Below, piece after piece: positions 10,591 to 59,893 of a DNA stretch of 64,000 nt (position 1 is its first letter; each line of letters opens with the position of its first letter). The DNA comes from an uncultured Sphingomonas sp. (GTDB lineage Bacteria > Pseudomonadota > Alphaproteobacteria > Sphingomonadales > Sphingomonadaceae): positions 378 through 64,377 of the forward strand of contig NZ_CAMLAC010000002.1 of NCBI RefSeq assembly GCF_946477935.1. The letters run 5' to 3'. The position numbers were made by a program, and so were the translations under genes. The notes under the pieces were generated by a model. It was given only the letters and a program-made list of their open reading frames with translations. It searched no databases and had not been told where the DNA came from.

Positions 10591-10593
10591 TCG

Positions 10594-36392: not shown

Positions 36393-36447
36393 TATGCGTC
36401 ACGCATATAGACAAGCCCCTACCGCCAAACTATATGCGTCGCGCATA
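36393..36447. promoter_or_regulatory. Two TATGCG-N3-CGCATA palindromes (36393-36407, 36433-36447) between divergent osmC-hydrolase and lysR
   Basis: Exact arms, 40 bp apart. Confidence 0.8.
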
Positions 36448-36517
36448 CTTCTCCGTAACGCTCGATCGACGCCTGATCCGTGGGGAAGTGCGTGACAGAC
36501 ACATGGGCCGAAGGGTG

Positions 36518-46334: not shown

Positions 46335-46364
46335 GCTATTGAAACTATAGTCACAGGGCATTGG
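46335..46364 (+). promoter_or_regulatory. 30-bp LysR/OxyR-like box upstream of the Mo-oxidoreductase operon
   Basis: GCTATTGAAACTATAGTCACAGGGCATTGG. Confidence 0.75.
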
Positions 46365-46569: not shown

Positions 46570-47175
46570 ATGGTCACCAGAGGTTTTACCGGTCGCGGAT
46601 CGGGCAGCGACCAGTCCGGCCGGATCCCGCCTGGCCAGCATCTCGTTGAGAATTTTCCGGTTCTGACCGCCGGACCGACCCCGGACCTCGATACCGCGAA
46701 ATGGAATTTCACGGTCAAGATCGGGCCGAAGCCCGTCAAGGTCTGGAACTGGAGCCAGTTCAACGCTCTGCCTCAAACCAGGGTGAAGAAGGACATTCAC
46801 TGCGTCACGTCCTGGTCCAAGCTGGATACGGCATGGGACGGCGTACTCATCGAGGACATCCTCGCAGACGCCGGGCTCGAGCACCCCACCGATTTCGTCC
46901 TCGTGCATTCGTACGACGGTTACTCGACGAACGTGCCGCTGGCGGATTTGCTTTCGGACAAGGCGATGGTCGCGCTCAAATATGCCGGGCAGCCGCTTCC
47001 GCGCGATCATGGCGGCCCAGCGCGCCTGCTCGTGCCGCACCTGTACTTCTGGAAGTCGGCCAAGTGGGTGAAAGCGCTGCAGTTCACGACGCGCGACGAA
47101 GCCGGCTTCTGGGAACTTCGCGGCTATCACATCTACGGCGATCCGTGGCGCGAGCAGCGATACACTCATGACTGA
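46570..47175 (+). CDS. Sulfite-oxidase-like molybdopterin oxidoreductase, no export signal
   Basis: RIPPGQ, DIHCVTSWS (Mo-ligand Cys), DGYSTNVPL, HGGPARLLVPHLYFWKSAKW. Confidence 0.88.
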   Translation: MVTRGFTGRGSGSDQSGRIPPGQHLVENFPVLTAGPTPDLDTAKWNFTVKIGPKPVKVWNWSQFNALPQTRVKKDIHCVTSWSKLDTAWDGVLIEDILADAGLEHPTDFVLVHSYDGYSTNVPLADLLSDKAMVALKYAGQPLPRDHGGPARLLVPHLYFWKSAKWVKALQFTTRDEAGFWELRGYHIYGDPWREQRYTHD

Positions 47176-47914
47176 AGGCGCCGTGCAGGCAGCGCCGTGG
47201 CAGAAGGCCGTGATTGACCAGGTCGTCCAACAGACCCCGGCCATCAAAAGCTTCTTCTTCCGGCTGCGCACGCCTTTCACCCATGTGGCGGGTCAGCACG
47301 TCGATGTGCGCCTGACGGCGCCTAACGGCTACACGGCGATGCGCAGCTATTCGATTGCCTCACCGACCAGCGATGCAGGGGTCCTTGAGCTCGCCATCGA
47401 ACGCTTGCCCGACGGGGAGGTATCCCCCTTCTTTCACGACGTCGCAGCGGTCGGTGACGAGATCGAACTTCGCGGCCCACTCGGCGGGCACTTCCTCTGG
47501 CCGGGGCAGGGAGCCGAGCCGATCCTTCTGATCGGAGCAGGCTCTGGTCTGGTCCCGCTGATGGCCATGATCCGGCAGCGCCGTGAGATGGCACAGACTG
47601 TTCCGACAGCGCTGCTCCTGTCAGCCCGCACGGCGCGCGACGTCCTGTTCTCGGACGAGCTGCTGGCCATCGAACTGGATGATCCCGCCTTCGTGCTGAC
47701 GCTGGCGATCACGCGTGAAGCTCCGAAGCGTGCGACAGACTTCGCGCGGCGGATCGATAGCACGGTCGTCCAGGAGGTGGTCAGTCGGCTTCCCCGCACG
47801 CCTGCCCACGTCTTCGTCTGCGGGTCGAACGGCTTCGTGAACATAGCGGCCGATGGCGCACTGCTCGCCGGTCTGGACGCCGCGGCAATCAAGACCGAGC
47901 GATACGGTGGATAA
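47168..47914 (+). CDS. FNR-like FAD/NAD(P)H oxidoreductase
   Basis: RSYSIAS, GEVS, GPLG.F, IGAGSGLVP, FVCGSNGFV; overlaps the Mo-enzyme stop. Confidence 0.9.
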   Translation: MTEGAVQAAPWQKAVIDQVVQQTPAIKSFFFRLRTPFTHVAGQHVDVRLTAPNGYTAMRSYSIASPTSDAGVLELAIERLPDGEVSPFFHDVAAVGDEIELRGPLGGHFLWPGQGAEPILLIGAGSGLVPLMAMIRQRREMAQTVPTALLLSARTARDVLFSDELLAIELDDPAFVLTLAITREAPKRATDFARRIDSTVVQEVVSRLPRTPAHVFVCGSNGFVNIAADGALLAGLDAAAIKTERYGG

Positions 47915-47986: not shown

Positions 47987-49006
47987 ATGACGGTCGTCGC
48001 GCGCCAGTTTCATCTCAGGGCCCGTCCGGAAGGGCTACCCGCGTCTGACAACTTCGAGCTCGTCGAACGATCGCTTCCGGCTCCGCACAGCGGGCAGGTT
48101 CTCGTCCGCAATCTGTGGCTCTCAGTCGACCCCTACATGCGCGGAAGGATGACCGGCCGCGAAAGCTACATCCCGCCGTTTGAGATAGGCGAGCCCCTGG
48201 ATGGGGCCGCGATCGGCGTCGTTGTCGAAAGCGACGACACCGGCCTAAGGCCGGGCGATGTCGTCAGCCACTTCGCCGGGTGGCGTGACTATGCGGTCGT
48301 CGACGCTACTTCTGCCACCAAGATCGATCCTGCGATCCCGGAGCAAGCCTATCTCGGGCCGCTCGGGTTCCCCGGCTTCGCCGCTTATATCGGCCTCCTG
48401 CGGATCGGAAAGCCGCAATCAGGCGAAACCGTCTTCGTCTCCGCCGCAGCCGGCTCGGTCGGTTCGCTCGCCGTCCAGATCGCAAAGATCAAGGGATGCC
48501 GGGTCGTGGCCTCCGCCGGCTCAGAGGAAAAGCTTCGCTGGCTACGCGATGAGGCGGGCGTCGATGCCACGATCAATTACAAGGAGGCGGGGGACATGTC
48601 GGCGGCGCTCGACACGGCAGCACCAGAAGGCATCGACATCTATTTCGACAATGTCGGCGGGACCCATCTCGAGGCAGCGCTGAGCGCCGCGAACGACTTC
48701 GCCCGCTTCGCACTGTGCGGAATGATCGACCAATATAACAGCGAGCCGTCCGGCCCCCGCAACATCTACGCCGCGATCGAGAAAAGCATCCTGCTGCAGG
48801 GCTTCATCACGATCCACAACATGTCCGTGTGGGAGGACTTCCAGCGCGACGTCGCGCGATGGATTCTGGACGGCGAGATCAAATGGCAGGAGACCGTGCT
48901 GCACGGCCTCGAGAGCACGCCAGCGGCTTTCCTCGACCTCTTTGCGGGAAAGAACATCGGCAAGATGGTGGTCGACCTGCGCGACGATCCACAGGGAGGA
49001 TCGTGA
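47987..49006 (+). CDS. NADP-dependent alkenal/prostaglandin reductase-like oxidoreductase (CurA-like MDR)
   Basis: WLSVDPYMRGRM, VSAAAGSVGS, YFDNVGG, LCGMIDQYN, GKNIGKMVV. Confidence 0.9.
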   Translation: MTVVARQFHLRARPEGLPASDNFELVERSLPAPHSGQVLVRNLWLSVDPYMRGRMTGRESYIPPFEIGEPLDGAAIGVVVESDDTGLRPGDVVSHFAGWRDYAVVDATSATKIDPAIPEQAYLGPLGFPGFAAYIGLLRIGKPQSGETVFVSAAAGSVGSLAVQIAKIKGCRVVASAGSEEKLRWLRDEAGVDATINYKEAGDMSAALDTAAPEGIDIYFDNVGGTHLEAALSAANDFARFALCGMIDQYNSEPSGPRNIYAAIEKSILLQGFITIHNMSVWEDFQRDVARWILDGEIKWQETVLHGLESTPAAFLDLFAGKNIGKMVVDLRDDPQGGS

Positions 49007-49085
49007 TGCGACGACCACGCCGCACGACCGCGACAGCGTCCCGCTGCCTCATTCCAGCGCAATTCCAGCATACCGGGAGATCAGC

Positions 49086-50351
49086 ATGAGCCGCTTCGCC
49101 GAACCCGTCTTTGTGGCCGCCGGCCTTCGGACACCATTTGGCCGCGGAGGCGGAGCGCTGGCGGCATACGACACGGTTTCGTTATCCGTACCAGTGGTGC
49201 AGGCGATGGCCGAGCATGCGAAGCCCGACCTGGTCGTCTGGGGAACCGTGATCCCGAACCTTGGCTGGAGCAATATTGCCCGCGAGGTCTGGCTCGATGC
49301 CAAGCTTAATCCGAATGTGCCGGCATTCTCCGTCGTTCTGGCGTGCTCGACCAGCATGACAGCAACCTTCGCAGCGGCGGGCATGCTCGGCGGCGGGACT
49401 GACCTGACGCTCGTCGGCGGCGGCGAGGTCATGAGCCGGCCATCGCTGGCCTTGACCCCAGAATCATCGAAGCGGCTCACGGATCTTTTCGCGAAAGATC
49501 CCGCCGCCGCGCTGGCTGCGCTGCAGGCGCTTACGCCGCGCGACTATGTCCTACCGACCAAGGGGTGGGCCAACCGCATCACCGGCAGAACCATGGGCGA
49601 TCATATGGAGGAGACGGCCAAGGCCTGGTCCATCTCCCGCGAAGCCCAGGACGATTGGGCGCTCAAAAGCCACCAGCGCGCAGTCGCCGGCTGGAATGCC
49701 GGCTTTTTCGATGATCTCGTGATCCCGCTGACCGAGCTGAAGCGCGACGCTAACCCGCGCTCAGACACGTCCGCCGAGCGGCTCGCCGCCCTGAAGCCTG
49801 CCTTCGATCGAGACAGCGGCTTCGGAACCCTGACGGCCGGCAACAGCTCGCCGATCACCGATGGCGCGGCCGCCTGCTGGGTCGCCAATGCGGTTGGCGT
49901 GGCAAAGCTACCGTCCGATACGCCATATGTCCGGTTGGTCGACTACGAGGTGTCAGCGGTCGACCTTCACAACGAGGGTCTGCTGATGGCCCCGTCCTAT
50001 GGCATCCCGCGCCTGCTTGCACGGCATGGACTCAGCTACCCGGACATTGCTCTTTGGGAAATCCACGAAGCTTTCGCCGCCCAGGTGCTGGCGAACGTCG
50101 CGGCTATCACCGACCGTGACTGGGTCCGCACGAAGGCGGGTGTCGACCAAGACATGGGCCAGTTCGACTGGGACCGCGTCAACCCAAATGGCGGCTCGGT
50201 GGCGATCGGGCATCCGTTCGGCGCCACCGGCGCCCGCGACCTCAGCCAGGCGGTGAAGGAGCTGTGGGCGCAGCCGGTGGGATCACGCGCGATCGTCAGC
50301 ATCTGCGCCGATGGCGGGCAGGGGACCGTCGCGCTTCTCGAGCGCGTGTGA
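49086..50351 (+). CDS. Thiolase (acetyl-CoA C-acyltransferase)
   Basis: RTPFG, LACSTS (Cys), HEAFAAQ, GHPFGATG, SICADGG. Confidence 0.92.
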   Translation: MSRFAEPVFVAAGLRTPFGRGGGALAAYDTVSLSVPVVQAMAEHAKPDLVVWGTVIPNLGWSNIAREVWLDAKLNPNVPAFSVVLACSTSMTATFAAAGMLGGGTDLTLVGGGEVMSRPSLALTPESSKRLTDLFAKDPAAALAALQALTPRDYVLPTKGWANRITGRTMGDHMEETAKAWSISREAQDDWALKSHQRAVAGWNAGFFDDLVIPLTELKRDANPRSDTSAERLAALKPAFDRDSGFGTLTAGNSSPITDGAAACWVANAVGVAKLPSDTPYVRLVDYEVSAVDLHNEGLLMAPSYGIPRLLARHGLSYPDIALWEIHEAFAAQVLANVAAITDRDWVRTKAGVDQDMGQFDWDRVNPNGGSVAIGHPFGATGARDLSQAVKELWAQPVGSRAIVSICADGGQGTVALLERV

Positions 50352-50361
50352 AGGGGGCAGC

Positions 50362-51435
50362 ATGATGAAGGCAATCCGCTTCCATGAATTCGGTGCCCCG
50401 GACGTGCTCCGATACGAAGACGCTCCAAAGCCAGACATCAAGCACGGAGAAGTGCTGATCCGCGTGATCGCCGCCGGCATCAACCCGCCCGACTGGTATC
50501 TGCGGGAAGGGTATAAGGCATTGCCGCCGGAATGGCGGCCGGAGGTCGCGTTCCCGGTCATTCCCGGATCGGACGTGTCCGGTGTCGTCGTTGCCGTCGC
50601 AGACGATGTGCAGGGCTTCGTGCCCGGCGACGAAGCGTTCGGCATGATCCGTTTCCCGAGTTACGGCGACAGCCTGGGATATGCCGAATATGTATCCGCG
50701 CCGGCATCAGACCTCGCCATCAAGCCGCGGTCGATCGATCACGTGCACGCCGCGGCAGTCCCGATGTCGGGCCTCACCGCTTGGCAATTCCTGATCAGTC
50801 TAGGTCACGACGAGCCCAATCCGCTGCAGCCGGATCGGCACCAGCCGGTCCCGCTTGCCGGCAAATGGGTCCTCGTCAATGGCGCGGCCGGCGGGGTCGG
50901 CCATCTCGCGGTCCAGTTGGCGAAACAGCAGGGCGCACGCGTCATCGCCGTCGCCTCGGGCCGGCACGAGAATTTCCTGGACGATCTCGGTGCGGACGAT
51001 TTCATCGACTATACCAAGACTGCGGCAGAAGATGTCGTGCGCGACGTCGATCTGGTGGTCGACGCGGTCGGCGGTCCTACGGCAGACCGCTTCCTGCGCA
51101 CGATCCGACGCGGCGGCGCGCTATTCCCGATCTTTCCGCTTGGTTTCACCGGCCAGGACGACGCCGCTCGGCTCGGTGTAACCGTCTCGGCGACGCAGGT
51201 CAGATCGAATGGTGCGCAGCTCGCGGAGCTTGGGCAGTTGCTCGAAAGCGGGGCCGTCCGTGTCGCTATCGACGGCACCTACCCGCTATCGCAGGCTTCC
51301 GCCGCGCACGAGCGCGCTGCGGACGGGCACATCCAAGGGAAGATCGTACTCACCGTCGGTGACGCAGATCCGCGCCCTGTAAGTACATCTGCCGTGTCGC
51401 CGACGACATGGCCGCCGCGCACGATCGGCCACTGA
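50362..51435 (+). CDS. NADP-dependent quinone-oxidoreductase-like MDR
   Basis: MKAIRFHEFGAPDVL, GINPPDW, PGSDVSG, NGAAGGVGH, GHIQGKIVL. Confidence 0.9.
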   Translation: MMKAIRFHEFGAPDVLRYEDAPKPDIKHGEVLIRVIAAGINPPDWYLREGYKALPPEWRPEVAFPVIPGSDVSGVVVAVADDVQGFVPGDEAFGMIRFPSYGDSLGYAEYVSAPASDLAIKPRSIDHVHAAAVPMSGLTAWQFLISLGHDEPNPLQPDRHQPVPLAGKWVLVNGAAGGVGHLAVQLAKQQGARVIAVASGRHENFLDDLGADDFIDYTKTAAEDVVRDVDLVVDAVGGPTADRFLRTIRRGGALFPIFPLGFTGQDDAARLGVTVSATQVRSNGAQLAELGQLLESGAVRVAIDGTYPLSQASAAHERAADGHIQGKIVLTVGDADPRPVSTSAVSPTTWPPRTIGH

Positions 51436-51539
51436 GGTGCGAGCGTTTGCCCCGCCTTTCGCGTGCTCCCGTCAGCGATTCGGAGCTGTTCATTGCGAGA
51501 CCGGACTAGCGGGCACGCGCAGGCGCTGGGAGGGGATCA

Positions 51540-53144
51540 GTGGCTCTGAACGCTAACACAGCGGATGTAGGTGCGATCCATCGCGCCAAGGCTCTTGCGG
51601 ACCTGATGGTCCTCGACACGCCTGACGAGCAAACCTTCGACGATCTCGTCTTTATCGCGGCAAAGGCCTGCGATGTCCCGATCGCACTGATCACGCTCCT
51701 CGATGTCGATCGACAATGGTTCAAGGCCAAGTACGGGCTCGACGTCCAGGAAACGGAGATCGAGCACTCCGTATGCCGGATAGAAATAGATCGCGGCGAC
51801 ATGCTCGAGATTACGGATCTGACCGCCGATCGTCGCACAAACTGCAACCCGCTCGTCACAGGTGCCCAGCACTTCCGCGCTTATGCCGGCGCACCGCTGG
51901 TCCTGCGCTCCGGTGTCGTGGTCGGCCGGCTGTGCGTCATCGACACCGAGCCACGCCCGGAAGGGTTGAGTGAGTTGGAAAGGGCGATGCTGCGTGCTCT
52001 CGCTCGCCTCGCCAGCGAGAACCTCGAGCTTCGTCGGACCGCCATGGCCAGCAATCGTCTGACGGAGTTGCAGGCCGCCTTGGTCGAGGTCGGCGAGGCC
52101 ATTCGCGGTAGCGGAGACGCTGGGCAGATGGCGTCAGCGACCGCAGCAATCGTCGGGCGGGTGCTGACTGCAGATCGCGCAGGCCTGGGGTCAGTCGACG
52201 ACGCAATCGAGACGATCGACATCAAGACCGACTGGACTGCGCCCGGAATTCTCAGCCTCGCCGGCCGTCATCGCCTCGATGAGTATGTGAGTTTGCGGGA
52301 GCCGCTCGTGTATGGCGACCCGCTGGTGGTCGCTGACGCCCTCACCGACGAACGCGCAGTCTCGAACCTTGCGATCGCAATGCGCATCGGGGTTCGCGCG
52401 CTTGTCGATATGCCGGTCCGGGAACATGGCAGGACGATCGCCTTGTTCTTCGTTCATTCGGCGCAGCCTAGACCTTGGCTGGCAGAAGAGATCGCGTTTC
52501 TCCGTAGCGCGACCGACCGTCTCGAAGCCGGTGTTGCGCGACATCGATCGGACGAGCAACAGCGCATCGTAAACGGTGAGATTGCGCACCGGCTGAAGAA
52601 CATGCTGACGATGGTTCAAGCGATCGCGAGCCAGACACTGCGATCAGCGAGCGACCGTGAATCAGTCTATGCCTTCGAACGCCGCCTGATGGCGCTGAGC
52701 GCCGCGCATGACGCCCTGCTTCAAAATAGCTGGGCGCAGGCCGACCTCAAATCAATAGCGACGACCGTGGTCGAGGCGATCGGGTTCATGGATCGCGTCA
52801 AGATGGACGGCCCACCAGTGGCGTTGGGGGCGCGGGCAGCGCTCTCCTTCTCGCTGATCGTGCACGAGCTTCTGACAAACGCCTGCAAATACGGGTCTCT
52901 CACGGGCGACTCCGGAGAAGTCTCGCTCACCTGGGAGATCGAGACCAACGATGGTGACGATCGCCTCATGATAAAATGGCGAGAGCGGGGGGGACCTCCA
53001 GTCACTCCACCTACGCGCCGGGGCTTCGGCTCGAAGCTTATCAGCATAGGCTTGGCCGGCACCGGCGGAGTGGACCTTCGCTACGATCCGGACGGATTCG
53101 CGGCCGACTTGCAAGCCCCCATGCGCCACCTGGCCAAGGGCTGA
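51540..53144 (+). CDS. HWE-family sensor histidine kinase with two GAF domains, cytoplasmic
   Basis: GAF (YAGAPL...GRLCVID), EIAHRLKNML H-box, HELLTNACKYG, WRERGGP; no TM segments. Confidence 0.92.
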   Translation: MALNANTADVGAIHRAKALADLMVLDTPDEQTFDDLVFIAAKACDVPIALITLLDVDRQWFKAKYGLDVQETEIEHSVCRIEIDRGDMLEITDLTADRRTNCNPLVTGAQHFRAYAGAPLVLRSGVVVGRLCVIDTEPRPEGLSELERAMLRALARLASENLELRRTAMASNRLTELQAALVEVGEAIRGSGDAGQMASATAAIVGRVLTADRAGLGSVDDAIETIDIKTDWTAPGILSLAGRHRLDEYVSLREPLVYGDPLVVADALTDERAVSNLAIAMRIGVRALVDMPVREHGRTIALFFVHSAQPRPWLAEEIAFLRSATDRLEAGVARHRSDEQQRIVNGEIAHRLKNMLTMVQAIASQTLRSASDRESVYAFERRLMALSAAHDALLQNSWAQADLKSIATTVVEAIGFMDRVKMDGPPVALGARAALSFSLIVHELLTNACKYGSLTGDSGEVSLTWEIETNDGDDRLMIKWRERGGPPVTPPTRRGFGSKLISIGLAGTGGVDLRYDPDGFAADLQAPMRHLAKG

Positions 53145-53151
53145 CGGAGGA

Positions 53152-53520
53152 ATGCGTATAATGATGAGGCCCGTGGTTCTCGTCGTAGAAGACGAACCAC
53201 TTGTTCGGCTTTTCGCATCGGACATGATCGAGGAAGCCGGTTTCGAGGTGCTGCAAGCGGCCGATGCCACGGACGCGATCGTCACGCTGGAAGGTCGGCT
53301 CGATGTCCGTGTCGTCTTCACCGATGTGGACATGCCTGGCGGGATCGACGGCATCATGCTGGCGATCTGCATTCGGGAGCGCTGGCCCGCCATTCAGATC
53401 ATCATCACTTCCGGCAGACCCTGGCCGGAGGGGACGGACATCCCTGACGACATGGTCTTTTTCTCGAAGCCATATCGTCAGGACCGGGTGCTGGAGACTG
53501 TTCGGAGGATGGCGGCATGA
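53152..53520 (+). CDS. Single-domain response regulator
   Basis: VLVVEDE, VFTDVDMPG, ITSG, FSKPY; no output domain. Confidence 0.92.
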   Translation: MRIMMRPVVLVVEDEPLVRLFASDMIEEAGFEVLQAADATDAIVTLEGRLDVRVVFTDVDMPGGIDGIMLAICIRERWPAIQIIITSGRPWPEGTDIPDDMVFFSKPYRQDRVLETVRRMAA

Positions 53521-53630
53521 CGCAGCACACCTGGGCGCCGCGGATAAGTGCTGGCGCAAGCCTCACCCCCCCGGCCGGGACAAGCCGCTGATCCCCGGCG
53601 ACCCCGGCTACGCCACTTCTCGCTGAAAGA

Positions 53631-55373
53631 ATGCTCGTGATGCTTCTGCTGCTGCTCTCCTACCTCGCCGGCGTGCTGACGATCATCAGCCCATGCATCC
53701 TGCCGGTGCTGCCCTTCGTCTTCGCGCGAGCAGGCCAGCCGTTCATGCGCAGTGGCCTGCCGCTACTGCTGGGGATGGCGGTGACCTTTGCCGGGGTAGC
53801 GACACTGGCCGCCGTCGGAGGCGGCTGGGCCGTCCAGGCGAATAGCTTCGGGAGAGCAGTGGCGCTGCTAATATTGGGATTGTTCGGCCTGCTGCTGCTC
53901 TTTCCCGCGCTTGCGGATCGAGCCACCCGACCGCTCGTCAAGCTGGGCGCCCGTCTCACAGAAGCGACCGGCCCGGAACGTTCCGGCGGCAGCTTCTGGG
54001 CGTCCCTGCTGCTTGGGTTCGCCACCGGTCTTCTATGGGCTCCCTGCGCGGGACCGATACTGGGGCTGATCCTGACCGGAGCCGCCTTGCAGGGCGCCAA
54101 TGTCGGCACGTCGCTGCTGCTGCTCGCCTACGCCGCCGGTGCCGCTACGTCGCTAGCACTGGCGCTGCTCCTCGGCGGACGCGTTTTCGCCGCGATGAAG
54201 CGGTCGATCCGTGTCGGCGACTGGTTCCGCCGTTCGCTCGGCGCGCTGGTGCTCGTCGCCGTGGCCGCCATCGCGCTGGGGCTCGACACGGGCCTGCTGA
54301 CCAGGCTCTCGCTTGCCGGCACGTCGGCCGTCGAACAGAGGCTCCTAGACAAGTTCCGGCTGGACGATCGCTCGGCGCAGACCAGCATGCCGGGAGACGG
54401 CCCACTCGGCATCGAAGGGGCGTTGCCTCCGCTCACCGGTGCAACGAGTTGGCTGAACTCTCCGTCGCTCACGCGCGAGGCGTTGCGCGGAAAGGTCGTC
54501 CTGGTCGATTTCTGGACTTACAGCTGCATCAACTGCCTGCGGACGCTGCCGTACGTCAAAGCCTGGGAGCAGAAGTATCGGGCCGCCGGGTTCGTCGTGA
54601 TCGGGGTTCACGCCCCCGAGTTCGCCTTCGAGAAGGATCCCAGTAACGTCGCGAAGGCCGTGCGTGACCTGGGCATCACCTATCCCGTCGCGCTCGACAA
54701 CAATCACGCAATCTGGCGCGCCTTCGACAACCGCTATTGGCCAGCGCATTACTTCATCGATGGCCGCGGCCGCATTCGATACCATCATTTCGGCGAAGGC
54801 AATTACGCCGAATCCGAGAAGGTCATCCAGCGGCTCCTCGCCGAGAATGGCCAGGCGGTCGGCGACATGCGAACCGTATCGGTGCGCACGGCGGGATCCT
54901 CCGCGGCGGCGAGCTGGAACGATGTACGCTCACCCGAGACCTACCTGGGCTATGTGCGTGGCGAGCGTTTCACGTCACCGGGCGGCCTCGCGCGCGAAAC
55001 CGTGCATGACTATGTCGCGCCGCCTCGGCTGCCTCTGAACGCCTGGGCGCTTTCCGGCCGCTGGATCGCGGGGTCGGAACATGCCTCGGCCCAATCCGCC
55101 GGTGCCCGCCTCGTCTACCGTTTTCATGCCCGCGACGTGCACCTTGTGCTCGGCCCTTCCACCATGGGACGGCGGGTTCGATTCCGCGTCACGATCGACG
55201 GCAAGCCGCCCGCTGGCGATCACGGCACGGACATCGATGACGCTGGGAACGGCACGATCGAGGGACAACGTCTCTATCAGCTCGTTCGGCAGAAGGGCGC
55301 CGTGCGCGAGCGTACCTTCTCGATCGAGTTCCTAGATGCCGGCGCTCAGGCTTTCGCCTTCACCTTCGGCTGA
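53631..55373 (+). CDS. dipZ: DipZ-like protein (CcdA/DsbD membrane domain plus thioredoxin domain)
   Basis: SPCILPVLP, WAPCAGPILG, VDFWTYSCINC, HAPEFAFEK, ETYLGY. Confidence 0.9.
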   Translation: MLVMLLLLLSYLAGVLTIISPCILPVLPFVFARAGQPFMRSGLPLLLGMAVTFAGVATLAAVGGGWAVQANSFGRAVALLILGLFGLLLLFPALADRATRPLVKLGARLTEATGPERSGGSFWASLLLGFATGLLWAPCAGPILGLILTGAALQGANVGTSLLLLAYAAGAATSLALALLLGGRVFAAMKRSIRVGDWFRRSLGALVLVAVAAIALGLDTGLLTRLSLAGTSAVEQRLLDKFRLDDRSAQTSMPGDGPLGIEGALPPLTGATSWLNSPSLTREALRGKVVLVDFWTYSCINCLRTLPYVKAWEQKYRAAGFVVIGVHAPEFAFEKDPSNVAKAVRDLGITYPVALDNNHAIWRAFDNRYWPAHYFIDGRGRIRYHHFGEGNYAESEKVIQRLLAENGQAVGDMRTVSVRTAGSSAAASWNDVRSPETYLGYVRGERFTSPGGLARETVHDYVAPPRLPLNAWALSGRWIAGSEHASAQSAGARLVYRFHARDVHLVLGPSTMGRRVRFRVTIDGKPPAGDHGTDIDDAGNGTIEGQRLYQLVRQKGAVRERTFSIEFLDAGAQAFAFTFG

Positions 55374-55433
55374 GAACGAAATGCCTGTGGAATCGCAATC
55401 GACCTCAACAACGAACGATCGGAGAGAGTAGCC

Positions 55434-55706
55434 ATGACGCCCGAAATTATCCTCTACACGACCAATTGGTGCCCTTTTTGCCGCCGCGCGAGGGCGCTTC
55501 TCACCCAGAAGGGCGTGAAATGGACTGAACACGACATCGAGGAGGATCCTGCTCAGCGCCAGGCAATGATCGAGGCCTCAGGCCGGGACACGGTTCCACA
55601 GATATTCATCAACGGCACGCACGTCGGAGGGTCTGATGACCTCTTTGATCTCGATGCCAAAGGCGGCCTCGACAAGCTGCTCGCAGGTGAGGCGTCCGCG
55701 ACCTGA
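55434..55706 (+). CDS. grxC: Glutaredoxin 3
   Basis: WCPFC, TVPQIFI, GGSDDL. Confidence 0.93.
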   Translation: MTPEIILYTTNWCPFCRRARALLTQKGVKWTEHDIEEDPAQRQAMIEASGRDTVPQIFINGTHVGGSDDLFDLDAKGGLDKLLAGEASAT

Positions 55707-55754
55707 TGCGACTGGCAAAGGCGCGCCCAGACATCGATGGAATGAAGGAACAGA

Positions 55755-56036
55755 ATGGTTTCGGCAGTTTGGAACGGCGCCACTATCGCCGCGAGCGAAG
55801 TGACCGTGATCGTCGACGGAAATCACTATTTTCCGCCAGAGGCGGTTGACCAAAGCAGGCTCGAGGCGAGCGATCACTCGTCCGTCTGTCCAGTCAAGGG
55901 CTCAGCGCGCTATTTTCATGTGCGGGCGGGCGGCGAGCGCAATCCGGATGCGGCCTGGACGTACCCCGACCCGACCGCAGAAGCCGAAGCGATCAGGGGT
56001 TATTTCGCATTCTGGAAGGGCGTGGAGGTTGCGTAG
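55755..56036 (+). CDS. DUF427-family protein
   Basis: GNHYFPPE, SVCPVKGSARY, AAWTYPDP, AFWKGV. Confidence 0.9.
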   Translation: MVSAVWNGATIAASEVTVIVDGNHYFPPEAVDQSRLEASDHSSVCPVKGSARYFHVRAGGERNPDAAWTYPDPTAEAEAIRGYFAFWKGVEVA

Positions 56037-56060
56037 GCCCCGCCTCGGAGGCGGCCGCTG

Positions 56061-57806
56061 ATGCCGGCAGCGCTTCATGCTCGCGTTTCCGCACATCTTG
56101 AGCAGGCGCTCGACGTGCTGGAGGCGTCTGGCGACCTGCCGGCCGGTCTCGCACGAAGTGGCGTGACCGTGGAAACGCCGCATGACGCTGCGCACGGCGA
56201 CCTGTCGACCAACGCCGCAATGGTGATGGGGAGACGTGCCGGCGTGCCGCCGCGGCAGCTCGCCGAGGCGCTGGCCAGCCGGCTGGCGGCGCTCGAGGAA
56301 GTGACGAGTGTCGAGGTCGCCGGGCCGGGCTTCGTCAATCTGCGGCTGACCGATCACGCGTGGCGGGACGAGCTGGCGACGATCGCACATTCTGGCGAGC
56401 GATATGGCAGCTCGGGGTTTGGTGCCGGCAAAACGGTGAATATCGAATATGTCTCGGCCAACCCGACCGGCCCGATGCACATGGGACATTGCCGCGGAGC
56501 GGTCGTGGGGGACGCGCTGGCGAACCTGCTCGCGTTCACCGGGCACCGCGTGATCCGCGAATACTACGTCAACGACGCCGGCGGACAGGTGGACGTCCTC
56601 GCCAGATCCGCGCACATCCGCTACCTCGAGGCGCTGGGCGACAGCGTTGGTGATATCCCGGAAGGCCTCTATCCGGGCGACTATCTCAAGCCCGTCGGCC
56701 AGGCCTTGGCCTCGGACTACGGCGACCGCTACCGACAAGCCCCGCCTACCGCATGGCTTCCGATATTCCGCTCGCGCGCCGTCGCAGCGATGATGGAAAC
56801 GATCCGTGCGGACCTCGCGCTGCTGGGCGTTCGTCACGACCGCTTCGCATCGGAAGCCGAACTGCTCGAGACGGGAAGGCCGGCCGCCGCCGAGGCTTGG
56901 CTGCGCGAGCGCGATCTCATCTATAATGGGGTGCTTGACCCTCCGAAGGGGTCGAAGCCGGAGGACTGGCAACCGATCGAACTTCCGCTGTTTCGCTCGA
57001 CACTTTTTGGCGATGATCAGGATCGGCCGATCCGCAAGGCAGATGGAAGCTGGTCCTACTTCGGCATCGACCTAGCCTACCACTTCGAGAAGGCACGCGA
57101 CGCCGATCAGATGATCGACGTCTGGGGCGCGGACCATGCCGGCACGGTGAAGCGGATCATCGCGGCTACCGAAGCCCTCACCGAAGGGCGCAAGCGCTTC
57201 GACATCAAACTGGTGCAGCTCGTTCGCCTGCTCCGCGCGGGCGAGCAGGTGAAGATGTCGAAGCGCGCCGGCAACTTCGTGACGCTTTCCGACGTCGTTC
57301 GGGAAGTCGGCAAGGACGTCGTCCGCTTCACCATGCTGACCCGTAAGGCCGAAGCGCCGATGGACTTCGACTTCGCGAAGGTCGTCGAGGCATCCAAAGA
57401 TAACCCGGTCTTCTACGTGCACTATGCCCATGCGCGCATCCACTCGCTCGCGAATCGCGCGGCCGAAGCCGCCTTCGAGCAGGGGGCGACACCCGACCTG
57501 ACCCGACTGGACGACCGTGACCTCGCTCTCGTGAAACAAGCGGCACAATTTCCGCGCATCGTGGAGGCATCTGCCGCCGCCCGCGAACCGCATCGGATCG
57601 CCTTCTACCTCGCTGACCTCGCGGCCGCATTTCACGCCATGTGGAACGCCGGCATCGATGATCCGCAGCGCCGCTTCATCCTGAAAGACGACGCCCCGCT
57701 CAGTCACGCCCGCCTCTCGCTGGCGAACGCCGTCGGACAGGTGATCCGCAACGGCATGGCGCTAATGGGGGTCGAACCGATGCAGCAGATGCCTCGCGCG
57801 CCGTGA
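56061..57806 (+). CDS. argS: Arginine-tRNA ligase
   Basis: HGDLSTN, EYVSANPTGPMHMGH (HIGH), EYYVNDAG, VWGADHAG, KMSKRAG, VHYAHAR; full length, 581 aa. Confidence 0.96.
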   Translation: MPAALHARVSAHLEQALDVLEASGDLPAGLARSGVTVETPHDAAHGDLSTNAAMVMGRRAGVPPRQLAEALASRLAALEEVTSVEVAGPGFVNLRLTDHAWRDELATIAHSGERYGSSGFGAGKTVNIEYVSANPTGPMHMGHCRGAVVGDALANLLAFTGHRVIREYYVNDAGGQVDVLARSAHIRYLEALGDSVGDIPEGLYPGDYLKPVGQALASDYGDRYRQAPPTAWLPIFRSRAVAAMMETIRADLALLGVRHDRFASEAELLETGRPAAAEAWLRERDLIYNGVLDPPKGSKPEDWQPIELPLFRSTLFGDDQDRPIRKADGSWSYFGIDLAYHFEKARDADQMIDVWGADHAGTVKRIIAATEALTEGRKRFDIKLVQLVRLLRAGEQVKMSKRAGNFVTLSDVVREVGKDVVRFTMLTRKAEAPMDFDFAKVVEASKDNPVFYVHYAHARIHSLANRAAEAAFEQGATPDLTRLDDRDLALVKQAAQFPRIVEASAAAREPHRIAFYLADLAAAFHAMWNAGIDDPQRRFILKDDAPLSHARLSLANAVGQVIRNGMALMGVEPMQQMPRAP

Positions 57807-57896
57807 ACCTTCGAGCCGCGGCTATACTGCCTACTTGTCGGCGCCCCTGCTTTCGACCGGCGCTCGCACATCAAATCCTCAACAGGAGAAGCTCGA

Positions 57897-58652
57897 ATGT
57901 CGAAAGTTCTACAAGGGAAGGTCGCGTTGATCACCGGCGGCTCTCGGGGTCTCGGTGCCGTGCTGGCAGAGACGCTCGCCGACCAGGGAGCAGATATCGC
58001 GATCACCTACGCCGCATCTGCCGCCAAGGCTGAAGCCGTGGTCGAGAAGGTGAGGGCCAAAGGGGTGCGGGCGATCGCCATTCAGTGCGATCAGGCGGAT
58101 AGCGCGGCTGCGCAGCCGATGGTCGAGCAGGTGGTCTCTGAGTTCGGCAAGCTCGACATCCTCATCAACAACGCAGCGATCGCGGTCCAGGGCAAGCTGG
58201 TCGATGATCCCACGCTTGATGGCCCTGCCTTTGACAAGCAGTGGATCGTCAACGTGCTCGGGACCGTGGCGGTAACGCGGGCGGCGGCGCAAAAGATTTC
58301 GGACGGCGGCCGGATCGTCTTCATCGGGTCCGGACTTGGCACGCGCGCGATCGTTCCGGGGGTTGCCGATTACGCCGGCACTAAGGCGGCCATCGCCGGA
58401 TATGCCCGCGGCGTGCAGCGCGATCTGGGGCCGCGCAATATCACGGTGAACGTGGTGCAGCCGGGCATCATGCCGACCGACATGGCGGCAGGAGCTGCGG
58501 AAAATTTCCCTGAAGCCGTCCTGGACCTACACCCGATACGTCGCATCGCTACCATCGAGGAAGTCGCGTCCGCGGTGAGCTACCTCGTTGGTCCGACCGC
58601 CAGCTACACAGCCGGGGCCGTGATCGACGTGTCCGGCGGTGTCCTGGTCTAG
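57897..58652 (+). CDS. Short-chain dehydrogenase/reductase
   Basis: TGGSRGLG, NNAAI, YAGTK, QPG. Confidence 0.92.
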   Translation: MSKVLQGKVALITGGSRGLGAVLAETLADQGADIAITYAASAAKAEAVVEKVRAKGVRAIAIQCDQADSAAAQPMVEQVVSEFGKLDILINNAAIAVQGKLVDDPTLDGPAFDKQWIVNVLGTVAVTRAAAQKISDGGRIVFIGSGLGTRAIVPGVADYAGTKAAIAGYARGVQRDLGPRNITVNVVQPGIMPTDMAAGAAENFPEAVLDLHPIRRIATIEEVASAVSYLVGPTASYTAGAVIDVSGGVLV

Positions 58653-58794
58653 AGGCGCTGTCTTGATGGCAAGTGCATCGGCGCCGGACCGCCGTATCGC
58701 GGCGCCCCCCACGGCAGGCGGGCGGGTCCGCCCGCCCGCCGCGCAGAGGTGCCTGCCGAGCACGTCCCGTCCCCATACCGCATCGGCAGCCTGA

Positions 58795-59061
58795 ATGGAA
58801 AACCCCGATTTCGAAGCTACGCTCGAAGGTCTGCCGCGCGGCTATAGCGAAGGGTTTTTCGATGGCCGCCGCTATGGCGTGTCGGTGCAGCGATCTGACG
58901 ACGGTCGGCGAAATAGCCTGTTTGCGAGAGATCTCGCCGGCACCGACATCGTGAGCTTCAATCTGTACCGAGTGGCGAACGGCGAGACGTTGCTCAGGCC
59001 TTGCGAGATGTCCTCGGAGAAAGTGGTCCGCTTTGTGCTTGGGTTCACGCCCGTCAACTAA
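58795..59061 (+). CDS. Small hypothetical protein with C-terminal PCEM motif (88 aa)
   Basis: SFNLY...LRPCEM; protein-like composition; single Cys. Confidence 0.65.
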   Translation: MENPDFEATLEGLPRGYSEGFFDGRRYGVSVQRSDDGRRNSLFARDLAGTDIVSFNLYRVANGETLLRPCEMSSEKVVRFVLGFTPVN

Positions 59062-59126
59062 CTTCTCTCTCGCACGCCGTGCAAGGGTTGGAAACACAAA
59101 CGCTACTCGCGCCTTAGCCGCTGAAG

Positions 59127-59156
59127 GCTATCGAAACTATAGCTGCCGGTTATTGG
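59127..59156 (+). promoter_or_regulatory. 30-bp LysR/OxyR-like box upstream of dps
   Basis: GCTATCGAAACTATAGCTGCCGGTTATTGG. Confidence 0.75.
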
Positions 59157-59251
59157 ACATCGATCCAAGCCAAACTCATTCTGTCGGCCTCAGCGGCCGA
59201 AGGGGAATCGATGCCGGCTCCTGTGAAAGCCACCATTCAGGGAGTCTATCG

Positions 59252-59752
59252 ATGACCAACGCCAGTACTGCGCCAGTTGCAACTCCCACCGACCTCGACG
59301 AGTCTGCTACGATGACCGTAGCCGATGCGCTCAAGATCATTCTGGCGAACAGCTATGCGGTATATCTCAAGACCAAGAATTTTCACTGGCACGTCTCCGG
59401 GCCATATTTCCGTGACTATCACCTCCTGCTCGATGAACAGGCGGCCGAGATCCTCGCGGTCACGGATGCTATCGCCGAGCGTGCCAGGAAGACTGGCAAT
59501 CGCACGCTAACATCGATCGGTGACATCGCACGCCACCAGACCATCAAGGACAACGACGCCGAATTTGTAACTCCGCAGGAGATGCTGGGCGAGTTAAGGG
59601 CCGACAATTTGCACATGGTGGAAGCGTTCCGGCGCGCGAAGGAGGTCGCGGACGAGGCGAAGGATAACGCCACCTCTGGCCTCATCGATGCATGGACTGA
59701 TGAAGCCGAACGCCGCGCATGGTTCCTTTTCGAAGCCAGCCGGCCCGGCTGA
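59252..59752 (+). CDS. dps: Dps-family ferritin-like DNA protection protein
   Basis: KTKNFHWHVSGPYFRDYHLLLDEQ...DAIAER ferroxidase signature. Confidence 0.93.
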   Translation: MTNASTAPVATPTDLDESATMTVADALKIILANSYAVYLKTKNFHWHVSGPYFRDYHLLLDEQAAEILAVTDAIAERARKTGNRTLTSIGDIARHQTIKDNDAEFVTPQEMLGELRADNLHMVEAFRRAKEVADEAKDNATSGLIDAWTDEAERRAWFLFEASRPG

Positions 59753-59893
59753 CGGCCGCCAACTAGGCATCGCTGCGCGGCCGAACCGATTGCGCCCGCC
59801 AGACAATAGCAAACCGCCGGGGCGCCGGTCGACGTGAAGCAGGCTCGAGGCCGATCCACGCGGCTTGTCGATCTGATATTATGAGGAAGCTGT

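What the first reader, a model, noticed from the sequence alone, without database searches (positions are those of the whole stretch)
53631..58652. A full-length arginyl-tRNA synthetase on a mobile element, in a dipZ-grxC-DUF427-argS-SDR run
Seen: intact ArgRS motifs; the gene is co-directional and closely spaced with thiol-redox genes; by my reading the protein has a single Cys (HMGHC). Known: aaRS genes are rare plasmid cargo and extra copies usually give resistance to an inhibitor or serve tRNA-dependent biosynthesis. Inference: an oxidation- or chloramine-tolerant backup ArgRS, or one that discriminates against N-chlorinated/modified arginine. No tRNA-dependent transferase is visible nearby.
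Basis: partly seen in the sequence, partly recalled or inferred. Interest (0 to 1): 0.6.

Follow-up and report, generated by a model that had tools for sequence, protein, structure and literature searches.

The report
Spare arginyl-tRNA synthetase in oxidant-defence island
A conjugative element of a Sphingomonas carries a complete second arginyl-tRNA synthetase that has travelled for a long time inside a mobile oxidant-defence operon of sphingomonads, but nothing in its sequence shows it to be oxidation-proof or to read a different substrate.

Summary
Window 53631-58652 encodes DipZ-like, Grx3, DUF427, a full-length ArgRS and an SDR. They are co-directional, with gaps of 61, 49, 25 and 91 bp, on an element with a MobF relaxase and TraD.

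The genome has a second argS on contig C9, 70% identical, in conserved chromosomal synteny.

The island copy (here called ArgS2) is not a recent host copy:
- It belongs to a clade with 100/100 support.
- The clade occurs in Sphingomonas, Novosphingobium, Sphingobium, Sphingopyxis and Croceicoccus.
- In the four complete genomes checked it sits beside an intact chromosomal argS.
- It is under purifying selection (dN/dS about 0.15) and has diverged about twice as far as chromosomal copies.

Its conserved place is between DUF427 and an 88-aa gene, in an operon headed by a Mo-oxidoreductase and framed by LysR-type boxes. A Klebsiella plasmid has the same operon without argS.

- The housekeeping ArgRS also has exactly one Cys, the same one.
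- Cys and Met are not depleted.
- The arginine-binding residues are identical.

Best reading (0.42): a canonical ArgRS co-induced with the island, supplying fresh enzyme during oxidant stress. Induction and benefit are untested.

The scan had noted the island before, but not this gene on other DNA.

The parts
46335..46350 (+). LysR-type box GCTATTGAAACTATAG (GCTAT-N7-ATAG palindrome), about 220 bp upstream of the Mo-oxidoreductase gene; proposed start of the transcription unit that holds argS2
   Evidence: There are 4 matches in the window against 0.06 expected. A box in the same position lies upstream of the Mo-oxidoreductase gene in all 7 related loci.
46570..47175 (+). Molybdopterin oxidoreductase (sulfite-oxidase/MsrP-like fold), first gene of the conserved operon
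   Evidence: PF00174 at 127.6 bits. Present in all 7 related loci and in the Klebsiella plasmid.
47168..47914 (+). FAD/NAD(P) ferredoxin-reductase-type flavoprotein
   Evidence: PF00970 and PF00175. Conserved in all loci.
47987..49006 (+). MDR-family NADP oxidoreductase; variable cargo, found only here and in L033
   Evidence: PF16884 and PF00107; distribution.
48942..50351 (+). Thiolase; the true start is probably downstream of the listed TTG
   Evidence: Thiolase_N and Thiolase_C from residue 56 onward. Conserved in all loci and in Klebsiella.
50311..51435 (+). Zn-ADH-like NADP oxidoreductase; sub-branch A2a only
51540..53144 (+). GAF-GAF-HWE histidine kinase; A2a only
53152..53520 (+). Single-domain response regulator; A2a only
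53631..55373 (+). DipZ-like membrane thiol-disulfide oxidoreductase (CcdA/DsbD-type TM part, thioredoxin-like domain, Thioredoxin_10 domain); A2a only
   Evidence: The S. paucimobilis homologue is annotated DipZ. Distribution.
55434..55706 (+). Glutaredoxin 3; present in A2a and in the Klebsiella plasmid, absent from the Sphingopyxis-type islands
55755..56036 (+). DUF427 protein (beta-tent fold, one conserved Cys in C-P-x-K-G); always directly upstream of argS2, but also present in the Klebsiella operon that has no argS
   Evidence: Fold from PMC4287342.
56061..57806 (+). ArgS2: full-length class I arginyl-tRNA synthetase paralogue, 581 aa
57897..58652 (+). SDR oxidoreductase; recent variable insertion between argS2 and the 88-aa gene
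   Evidence: Found only in the window and in L033, at 98% identity, while neighbouring genes are 88-96% identical.
58795..59061 (+). Conserved 88-aa ORF with no family match, last gene of the unit
   Evidence: Present in all 7 loci and in Klebsiella. No Pfam or NCBIfam hit.
59127..59142 (+). Next LysR-type box, upstream of dps; marks the end of the interval that holds argS2

Best explanation
ArgS2 is a catalytically ordinary arginyl-tRNA synthetase that became a fixed member of a mobile oxidant-defence operon of sphingomonads. The operon is [LysR-type box]-Mo-oxidoreductase-flavin reductase-thiolase-(variable genes)-DUF427-ArgS2-88-aa gene.

I propose that it is transcribed with that operon when the island is switched on. 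It would then supply newly made ArgRS, so that tRNA-Arg charging and the synthesis of the repair proteins continue while the housekeeping enzyme is damaged or limiting. The benefit would come from when and how much enzyme is made, not from a visibly different enzyme.

A possible reason why only sphingomonad islands carry it: every sphingomonad ArgRS has a Cys directly after the ATP-binding HMGH motif, where other bacteria have Ala, Gly, Val or Leu. ArgRS may therefore be a weak point in this order, and the neighbouring Grx3 could reduce it.

Shown: gene integrity, paralogy, mobility, conserved operon position, purifying selection, unchanged substrate-binding residues.
Inferred: co-transcription, induction by oxidants, the benefit, and any role of the Cys.
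For: 1. Canonical enzyme.
- It passes the argS equivalog model, 338.5 bits against a cut-off of 261.65.
- HMGH and KMSK are intact.
- 206 of 222 highly conserved columns are kept.
- The residues aligned to the E. coli arginine-binding D118, Y313, D317 and R324 are the same in all 22 island and 56 chromosomal copies.
- There are no internal indels.

2. Extra copy. The host has a second argS on C9 (70% identity) with nagZ downstream. Its neighbours are found beside argS in 60-68 of 74 other sphingomonad loci. Four other complete carrier genomes also have both copies.

3. Selected, not decaying. dN/dS is 0.14-0.19 in eight of nine pairs, up to dS above 1. The gene is intact in 22 cluster representatives from at least 5 genera.

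4. Fixed operon position. DUF427-ArgS2-88aa is found in all 7 loci, through island rearrangements. In the compact Sphingopyxis form, the unit between two LysR-type boxes is exactly Mo-ox, FR, thiolase, DUF427, ArgS2 and 88aa, with gaps of 28-92 bp. No box lies between the Mo-ox gene and the 88-aa gene in any locus.

5. Context. The island holds msrA, msrB, dps, grx, an OsmC fusion and redoxins. Carriers include Sphingopyxis strains of the H series, one of which (H050) came from drinking water, with two Sphingopyxis strains reported from a chloraminated distribution-system simulator (PMC4816621).

6. aaRS cysteines are documented hypochlorite targets in S. aureus (PMC5791933).

7. Cys144 is present in 56/56 sphingomonad ArgRS, 2/12 other alphaproteobacteria, and is Leu in E. 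coli. The Klebsiella version of the operon has no argS.
Against: - There are no expression data. Co-transcription and induction rest only on spacing and box positions.
- In this window five extra genes, including a kinase and a response regulator, lie between the box and argS2. They may bring their own promoter.
- The LysR-type regulator is not an OxyR by model score, 75 bits against a cut-off of 329.
- ArgS2 keeps the same Cys144, so a fresh copy would be as vulnerable as the old one.
- A mere dosage benefit does not explain why ArgS2 has diverged about twice as far as housekeeping copies (0.90 against 0.48 substitutions per site from the crown node). It also does not explain why ArgS2 changes 8-16 otherwise conserved columns, against a mean of 1.6 for chromosomal copies.
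- It is unexplained why ArgRS, and no other synthetase, is carried.
Confidence: 0.42

Rival explanations
1. ArgS2 is an intrinsically oxidant-hardened isozyme. This follows the logic of oxidant-resistant stress isozymes such as fumarase C and aconitase A (that analogy is from my own knowledge). It would keep working at oxidant doses that inactivate the housekeeping ArgRS.
For: - The clade has a long stem (0.28) and 8-16 changes at otherwise conserved columns.
- It sits in an oxidant-defence operon.
- Tyr is slightly lower, 2.3-2.5% against 2.9%.
Against: - It has the same single Cys at the same active-site-adjacent position as every housekeeping copy.
- Met is slightly higher (2.5-2.6% against 2.2%) and His higher.
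- The island as a whole shows no depletion of Cys, Met or Lys relative to chromosomal genes.
- Only 9 clade-wide substitutions fall at conserved columns: seven conservative residue changes plus two terminal-extension columns.
Confidence: 0.15
2. ArgS2 has altered or relaxed tRNA recognition. It would serve tRNA-Arg species that are oxidatively damaged or under-modified during stress, or one particular isoacceptor.
For: The positions changed in most or all ArgS2 lie outside the catalytic core:
- 39 and 41, in the N-terminal tRNA-binding domain.
- 465 and 576, in the anticodon-binding DALR domain.
- A tail of 3-10 residues after the conserved C-terminal Met, where chromosomal alphaproteobacterial copies have 0-2, usually one.

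Several of these positions vary among ArgS2 members, as expected if a constraint was lifted.
Against: - The same pattern is expected from plain relaxation in a redundant copy.
- No tRNA gene travels with the island.
- The GPGFVN segment of the N-terminal domain is kept in the window copy. I recall it as the A20-recognition site, but that assignment was not checked here.
- No structural mapping was possible with these tools.
Confidence: 0.1
3. ArgS2 is a passenger. It was captured once and is kept because it sits in the middle of a selected operon, or for a general dosage benefit, with no stress-specific role.
For: - The operon works without it in Enterobacterales.
- Nothing in the enzyme looks special.
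- It is rare: 1 of 151 sampled species genomes of the family.
Against: - Purifying selection holds over deep divergence, with dS above 1.
- It has been retained through several island rearrangements and host changes across at least 5 genera.
- A useless 1.7-kb gene inside an operon would be expected to pick up stops or deletions in some of 22 lineages. None was seen.
Confidence: 0.18
4. ArgS2 confers resistance to an ArgRS inhibitor or an arginine analogue (for example canavanine or chlorinated or hydroxylated arginine). This would be analogous to the plasmid-borne mupirocin-resistant IleRS2.
For: A horizontally mobile second aaRS is the classic signature of inhibitor resistance (review PMC9437257).
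Against: - The arginine-binding residues are identical to housekeeping copies.
- No biosynthetic cluster lies nearby.
- No natural ArgRS inhibitor linked to this habitat is known to me.
- All conserved neighbours are redox genes.
Confidence: 0.05
5. Arg-tRNA made by ArgS2 feeds a non-ribosomal reaction, such as an aminoacyl-transferase acting on proteins, lipids or a small molecule, carried out by an unrecognised neighbour (DUF427 or the 88-aa protein).
For: DUF427 and the 88-aa gene flank argS2 in every locus and have no known function.
Against: - The same DUF427 and 88-aa genes sit side by side without any aaRS in the Klebsiella plasmid, so they do not need ArgS2.
- No known transferase family is present.
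Confidence: 0.04

Closest known systems
Housekeeping bacterial ArgRS (argS, TIGR00456; solved examples C. jejuni 3FNR, P. horikoshii 2ZUE, E. coli 4OBY)
   Same: Same three-domain layout, HIGH and KMSK motifs, arginine-binding residues and length, with no indels. It scores above the equivalog cut-off.
   Different: - It is a second copy on a conjugative element, inside a redox operon.
- It has no chromosomal synteny (argS-nagZ and neighbours).
- It has diverged about twice as far.
- It changes 8-16 columns that are otherwise conserved.
- It has a short C-terminal tail after the conserved Met.
Plasmid-borne resistance synthetases, e.g. mupirocin-resistant IleRS2 (MupA) of staphylococci (PMC9437257)
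   Same: An extra, horizontally transferred, full-length aaRS that coexists with the housekeeping enzyme.
   Different: No inhibitor is known or implied. The binding-pocket residues are unchanged. The gene is embedded in an oxidant-defence operon rather than a resistance transposon.
Stress-induced aaRS paralogues, e.g. E. coli LysU (induced by heat, oxidative stress and low pH; PMC9437257)
   Same: A second, active synthetase whose distinguishing feature would be its regulation under stress.
   Different: - LysU is chromosomal and has a role in Ap4A synthesis.
- From my own knowledge, ArgRS needs tRNA to activate arginine and is not known to make Ap4A.
- ArgS2 is mobile cargo, and its induction is only inferred.
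The same oxidant-defence operon on Enterobacterales plasmids (e.g. Klebsiella michiganensis IncFII plasmid NZ_CP056138.1)
   Same: Mo-oxidoreductase, flavin reductase, thiolase, Grx, DUF427 and the 88-aa gene lie in the same order, at 69-87% protein identity. CorA, MFS, DM13, redoxin, msrA and msrB are nearby.
   Different: There is no argS: DUF427 is followed after 171 bp by the 88-aa gene. ArgS2 is an addition, or a survivor, found only in sphingomonad islands.

Membership tests
Arginyl-tRNA synthetase (class Ia aaRS, TIGR00456 argS) | Whole-protein score above the curated equivalog cut-off | tested here: met
   338.5 bits against a cut-off of 261.65.
Arginyl-tRNA synthetase (class Ia aaRS, TIGR00456 argS) | N-terminal Arg_tRNA_synt_N domain, Rossmann-fold catalytic domain and C-terminal DALR anticodon-binding domain | tested here: met
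   PF03485 at 13-96, PF00750 at 121-181 (with further class I matches at 360-447) and PF05746 at 453-577.
Arginyl-tRNA synthetase (class Ia aaRS, TIGR00456 argS) | HIGH and KMSKS signature motifs | tested here: met
   HMGH at 140-143 and KMSK at 398-401, as in chromosomal copies.
Arginyl-tRNA synthetase (class Ia aaRS, TIGR00456 argS) | Residues that bind the arginine guanidinium (E. coli D118, Y313, D317, with R324 in support; PMC3956977) | tested here: met
   They align to E129, Y333, D337 and K344. These are identical in 22 ArgS2, 56 chromosomal and 12 outgroup sequences.
Arginyl-tRNA synthetase (class Ia aaRS, TIGR00456 argS) | Charges tRNA-Arg with arginine | not testable with these tools
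   Needs an aminoacylation assay or complementation of an argS(ts) strain.
Inhibitor-resistance auxiliary aaRS (MupA/IleRS2 type) | Second, horizontally acquired copy beside a sensitive housekeeping enzyme | tested here: met
Inhibitor-resistance auxiliary aaRS (MupA/IleRS2 type) | Altered substrate or inhibitor pocket, or linkage to an inhibitor biosynthetic cluster or resistance transposon | tested here: not met
   The pocket residues are unchanged. The conserved neighbours are redox genes only.
Stress-induced aaRS paralogue (LysU type) | Own stress-responsive regulation, distinct from the housekeeping gene | tested here: inconclusive
   It lies between two conserved LysR-type boxes in an oxidant-defence operon in 7 of 7 loci. 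No expression data exist, and the regulator is a generic LTTR.
Truncated or aaRS-like paralogues with non-translational roles (e.g. ArgS-related NrtL, NF045898) | Lacks the catalytic domain or motifs, or is shorter than a synthetase | tested here: not met
   It is full length with all motifs. The NrtL model scores 145.8 bits against a cut-off of 340.

The most novel reading that the evidence does not exclude
ArgRS is a specific weak point of sphingomonads under chlorine or oxidant stress, because of the order-wide Cys next to the HIGH motif. The mobile island would have recruited a diverged ArgRS that keeps tRNA-Arg charged under such stress, either because it tolerates oxidants or because it accepts damaged tRNA-Arg. 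It would be the first aminoacyl-tRNA synthetase acting as a transferable disinfectant-tolerance determinant.
Probability: 0.2. Interest if true: 0.7.

Novelty: new variant of a known kind. Interest (0 to 1): 0.45.

Why it matters
Extra synthetase genes on mobile elements are normally read as antibiotic-resistance or biosynthesis genes. Here one is a stable part of an oxidant and chlorine-damage defence operon. That operon circulates among sphingomonads, including species known from water systems such as S. koreensis and S. paucimobilis and the drinking-water Sphingopyxis isolates.

If the gene helps, tRNA charging would be a limiting step in recovery from disinfectant stress, and translation capacity would be transferable cargo. 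It also offers a natural pair of ArgRS enzymes, 70% identical with the same pocket, for asking what makes a synthetase robust.

If it does not help, it is a well-documented example of long-term retention of a redundant essential-gene copy inside an operon.

Tried and rejected
1. Single Cys as a sign of oxidation tolerance: rejected. The chromosomal copy has the same count and the same position.

2. Compositional hardening (Cys, Met, Lys, Tyr, His): the differences from the nearest chromosomal ArgRS are under 0.6 percentage points and go in mixed directions. The island as a whole is not depleted either.

3. DUF427-ArgS2 as an obligate functional pair: rejected. DUF427 and the 88-aa gene are adjacent without argS in a Klebsiella plasmid, and no chromosomal argS locus has DUF427 within 10 kb.

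4. 'ArgS2 derives from Sphingomonas sensu stricto': suggested by the first quick LG+G4 tree but withdrawn.
- An AU test does not reject a tree with all chromosomal copies together (p 0.62; that tree is 14.6 lnL better).
- The careful PMSF tree supports only placement inside the family radiation (97/97). The deeper nodes have 13-51% bootstrap.

5. Calling the island regulator OxyR: rejected, 75 bits against a cut-off of 329.

6. A tRNA gene or known RNA element with the gene: none found.

7. Sigma-70 promoter and terminator scan of 53000-59900: nothing above chance.

8. Alignment of the insertion junctions: uninformative.

9. Literature searches for a described second ArgRS, or an aaRS in hypochlorite islands: nothing found.

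The contexts of the metagenomic ArgS2 proteins (P0014, P0018, P0021 and others) could therefore not be read.

11. No structure was predicted, because the tools return no coordinates for mapping substitutions onto the tRNA interface.
Full report
**What is there**

- 53631-55373 is a 580-aa DipZ-like protein: a weak DsbD-type membrane part, a redoxin/thioredoxin-like domain and a Thioredoxin_10 C-terminal domain.
- 55434-55706 is glutaredoxin 3.
- 55755-56036 is a 93-aa DUF427 protein.
- 56061-57806 is a 581-aa arginyl-tRNA synthetase.
- 57897-58652 is an SDR.

The genes are co-directional, with gaps of 61, 49, 25 and 91 bp and a GGAG-type ribosome-binding site before each start.

The synthetase has all three ArgRS domains. 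It scores 338.5 bits on the argS equivalog model (cut-off 261.65). It carries HMGH at 140-143 and KMSK at 398-401. It has one cysteine, in HMGHC.

**The element is mobile**

The window is contig C2 (69.6 kb) of a 3.93-Mb draft genome in 356 contigs.
- At 8209-13665 it encodes a TrwB/TraD coupling protein and a TrwC/MobF relaxase, followed by an imuB-dnaE2 cassette.
- That backbone is about 81% identical in DNA to the transfer regions of many sphingomonad megaplasmids.
- From about 29.5 kb to 61 kb the window matches, at 82-84% DNA identity, a region of the 426-kb plasmid of Sphingomonas paucimobilis FDAARGOS_881.
- That region is annotated with LysR, msrB, msrA, GST, CorA, MFS, DM13, redoxin, a thioredoxin-like (seleno)protein, a sulfite-oxidase-like oxidoreductase, ferredoxin reductase, thiolase, a GAF kinase, a response regulator, DipZ, GrxC, DUF427, argS, Dps and MsrA.

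So the synthetase sits in an oxidant-defence cargo island. Earlier notes of this scan had reached the same reading of the island.

Plasmid-borne argS is rare. Only 54 of 72,556 PLSDB records contain an ArgRS. Most are chromids or megabase replicons, and only the S. paucimobilis plasmid has this type.

**It is a second copy and not a recent host copy**

The genome has another argS on contig C9, 70% identical at the protein level.
- That copy is followed by a GH3 (nagZ-type) gene.
- Its neighbours are found next to argS in 60-68 of 74 other sphingomonad loci.
- None of the island genes occurs in those loci.

In an even sample of 150 other species genomes of the same family, every genome had one argS. 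The two double hits were split genes in fragmented assemblies. No chromosomal copy is more than 70% identical to the island copy.

A scan of species-representative genomes and a search of 5.8 billion proteins found the relatives of the island copy, which I call ArgS2:
- Sphingomonas sp. BE138 (91%).
- Croceicoccus sp. BE223 (86%).
- S. koreensis (95%).
- Novosphingobium sp. TCA1 (91%).
- S. paucimobilis (86%).
- Sphingobium naphthae (the cluster at 80%).
- A second branch at 72-76% in Sphingopyxis (H038, H053, S. witflariensis, S. terrae), S. molluscorum and MAGs.

Four complete carrier genomes that I checked have ArgS2 plus their own chromosomal argS. A fifth, a 2.8-Mb MAG, showed only ArgS2.

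**Phylogeny**

ArgS2 is one clade with full support: SH-aLRT 100 on 90 rows, and 100/100 on 59 rows under LG+C20+F+G4. It has two sub-branches:
- A2a, with dipZ-grx.
- A2b, the compact Sphingopyxis type.

Its hosts' chromosomal ArgRS are scattered over the family tree, so ArgS2 has moved horizontally.

ArgS2 groups with sphingomonad ArgRS against 12 other alphaproteobacterial families (100/100). It falls inside a 46-row sphingomonad clade (97/97).

My first quick tree placed it within Sphingomonas sensu stricto, and I withdraw that.
- The deeper nodes have 13-51% bootstrap.
- An AU test does not reject a tree in which all chromosomal copies form one clade (p 0.62; that tree was even 14.6 log-likelihood units better under LG+G4).

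The donor lineage is therefore unresolved. What is firm is a sphingomonad origin, considerable age, and no recent copying from any sampled host.

**How the gene has evolved**

- dN/dS among ArgS2 orthologues is 0.14-0.19 (one close pair 0.31), up to synonymous saturation. Chromosomal pairs give 0.06-0.19. This is purifying selection, a little weaker than on the housekeeping gene.
- From the crown node of the family, ArgS2 tips lie at 0.90 substitutions per site, against 0.48 for chromosomal tips.
- Of 222 columns that are at least 95% conserved in 68 chromosomal sequences, ArgS2 members change 8-16. Sphingomonad chromosomal copies change 1.6 on average, and the host's own copy changes 2.
- The positions changed in most or all ArgS2 are 39 and 41 (N-terminal domain), 304, 327, 370, and 465 and 576 (DALR domain).
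- Several of these carry different residues in different members, which looks like a lifted constraint rather than a new fixed state.
- Only nine columns show a clade-wide difference from the conserved chromosomal state. Seven are conservative residue changes and two are terminal-extension columns.
- There are no internal indels. ArgS2 has 2-3 extra N-terminal residues and a tail of 3-10 residues after the conserved C-terminal Met, where alphaproteobacterial chromosomal copies have 0-2, usually one.

First, the single cysteine.
- The host's chromosomal ArgRS also has exactly one Cys, and the family mean is 1.5.
- The Cys after HMGH is present in 22/22 ArgS2 and 56/56 sphingomonad chromosomal ArgRS.
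- It is present in only 2 of 12 other alphaproteobacteria. It is Leu in E. coli and Ala in the C. jejuni and P. horikoshii structures.
- So it is a trait of the order, not of the island copy.

Second, composition.
- Against the 20 nearest chromosomal ArgRS, ArgS2 has Met 2.5-2.6% (against 2.2%), His 2.9-3.2% (2.6%), Tyr 2.3-2.5% (2.9%) and Lys 2.8-3.1% (3.2%).
- Island proteins as a set are not depleted in Cys, Met or Lys.
- There is no hardening signature.

Third, substrate discrimination.
- In E. coli ArgRS, D118, Y313 and D317 hold the guanidinium and R324 supports D118 (PMC3956977).
- These align to E129, Y333, D337 and K344.
- Those residues are identical in all ArgS2, all chromosomal and all outgroup sequences.
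- Nothing points to a changed amino-acid specificity.

**The conserved context**

I compared seven loci: L003, L033 and L034 of branch A2a, and L035-L038 of branch A2b.
- The genes always present are the Mo-oxidoreductase, the flavin reductase, the thiolase, DUF427, ArgS2 and an 88-aa ORF without any family match.
- dipZ, grx, the kinase, the response regulator and one dehydrogenase occur only in A2a.
- The SDR occurs only in the window and in L033, where it is 98% identical while neighbouring genes are 88-96% identical. It is therefore a recent insertion.

A palindromic box, GCTAT-N7-ATAG(C), has the form usual for LysR-type regulators.
- It occurs four times in the window (0.06 expected): before msrB, before the redoxin/DM13 genes, before the Mo-oxidoreductase and before dps.
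- In all seven loci one box precedes the Mo-oxidoreductase gene, and the next one follows the 88-aa gene.
- In the compact A2b form, the interval between the boxes is exactly Mo-oxidoreductase, flavin reductase, thiolase, DUF427, ArgS2 and 88-aa, with gaps of 28-92 bp.

This is the basis for reading ArgS2 as a member of a box-controlled operon. It is an inference from arrangement, not from expression.

The LysR-type gene of the island (36434-37393) is a generic member of its family, not an OxyR by model score.

**The operon without the synthetase**

The Mo-oxidoreductase/flavin-reductase pair matches hundreds of Enterobacterales, Aeromonas and Pseudomonas plasmids.

In one of them, a Klebsiella michiganensis IncFII plasmid from wastewater, the order is Mo-oxidoreductase, flavin reductase, thiolase, Grx, DUF427 and the 88-aa gene.
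- Protein identity to the window is 69-87%.
- CorA, MFS, DM13, redoxin, msrA and msrB are nearby.
- There is no argS. DUF427 is followed after 171 bp by the 88-aa gene, and the next large ORF is a Tn3 transposase.

Two things follow. DUF427 and the 88-aa gene do not need ArgS2. And ArgS2 is an addition (or survivor) specific to sphingomonad islands, which fits its sphingomonad ancestry.

Whether the Enterobacterales form lost it or never had it could not be decided. The three island forms are about equally distant from each other.

**Interpretation**

The evidence fits best a canonical ArgRS whose special feature is where and when it is made.
- It is a stable, selected member of an oxidant-defence operon.
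- It would be co-induced with the island and provide fresh ArgRS during and after oxidant damage.
- Hypochlorite is known to oxidise cysteines of several synthetases in S. aureus (PMC5791933).
- The order-wide Cys next to the HIGH motif offers a testable reason why sphingomonads, and not Enterobacterales, carry a spare ArgRS beside a glutaredoxin.

I give this 0.42. What it leaves unexplained:
- ArgS2 keeps the same Cys.
- It has diverged twice as far as the housekeeping gene.
- Only ArgRS, and no other synthetase, is carried.

The rivals are a truly oxidant-hardened isozyme (0.15), a passenger or general dosage gene (0.18), altered tRNA recognition for damaged or under-modified tRNA-Arg (0.10), analogue or inhibitor resistance (0.05) and a non-ribosomal use of Arg-tRNA (0.04).

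**Novelty**

I found no description of a second ArgRS in sphingomonads, nor of any synthetase in an oxidant or chlorine-defence island. A review of duplicated synthetases does not discuss ArgRS duplicates.

The kind of thing (an auxiliary, horizontally transferred or stress-linked aaRS paralogue) is known. The amino acid, the genomic setting and the apparent absence of a pocket change are new. I class it as a new variant of a known kind, of moderate interest.

**Limits**

- The draft assembly does not show whether C2 is a plasmid or an integrated element, nor, if it is a MAG, that C2 and C9 come from the same cell.
- The isolation source of Sphingopyxis H053 itself was not confirmed. Only strains of the same series are documented from drinking water and a chloraminated simulator.

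Noticed in passing
window 56478-56492 (codons for HMGHC, residues 140-144 of ArgS2); C9 argS and 56 other sphingomonad loci: Every sphingomonad ArgRS sampled (56 chromosomal, 22 island) has a Cys directly after the HIGH motif (HMGHC or HVGHC). Only 2 of 12 other alphaproteobacteria have it, E. coli has Leu, and C. jejuni and P. horikoshii have Ala. All 12 outgroups instead share a Cys at another column that sphingomonads lack. This could be an order-specific redox-sensitive site.
   Followed up: partly
L151 (Klebsiella michiganensis plasmid NZ_CP056138.1) 12032-15820: The same operon (Mo-oxidoreductase, flavin reductase, thiolase, Grx, DUF427, 88-aa gene) occurs on an IncFII wastewater plasmid next to mer genes, IS5075 and a Tn3 transposase, without argS. 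The thiolase and part of the grx are missing from the PLSDB gene table but are found by tblastn.
   Followed up: partly
window 58795-59061: An 88-aa ORF with no Pfam or NCBIfam match is the last gene of the operon in all seven sphingomonad loci and in the Klebsiella plasmid (62-93% identity). It is a conserved unknown of the oxidant-defence island.
   Followed up: no
window 55755-56036: The DUF427 protein has one Cys, in a C-P-x-K-G motif shared with the only solved member (3DJM). DUF427 has the beta-tent fold of MsrB (PMC4287342). Here it sits in an island with several msrA and msrB genes, which suggests a repair or reductase role worth testing.
   Followed up: partly
window 57897-58652 and 58727-58750: The SDR gene is 98% identical to that of Sphingomonas sp. 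BE138, while flanking genes are 88-96% identical, and it is absent from the other five loci. It is followed by a perfect G+C-rich hairpin (GGCGGGCGGG-TCC-GCCCGCCCGCC). It looks like a recently inserted gene cassette.
   Followed up: no
window 50311-55706: A five-gene block (Zn-ADH-like oxidoreductase, GAF-HWE histidine kinase, single-domain response regulator, DipZ, Grx3) separates thiolase from DUF427 in branch A2a only. HWE kinases with single-domain regulators usually feed the alphaproteobacterial general stress response (my own knowledge), so this island branch may have its own sensory input.
   Followed up: no
window 62184-63233: A tyrosine recombinase (phage-integrase family) lies just past the last island genes (msrA-like at 60760-61245, KDPG-type aldolase at 61352-62032). 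It may mark the island border.
   Followed up: no
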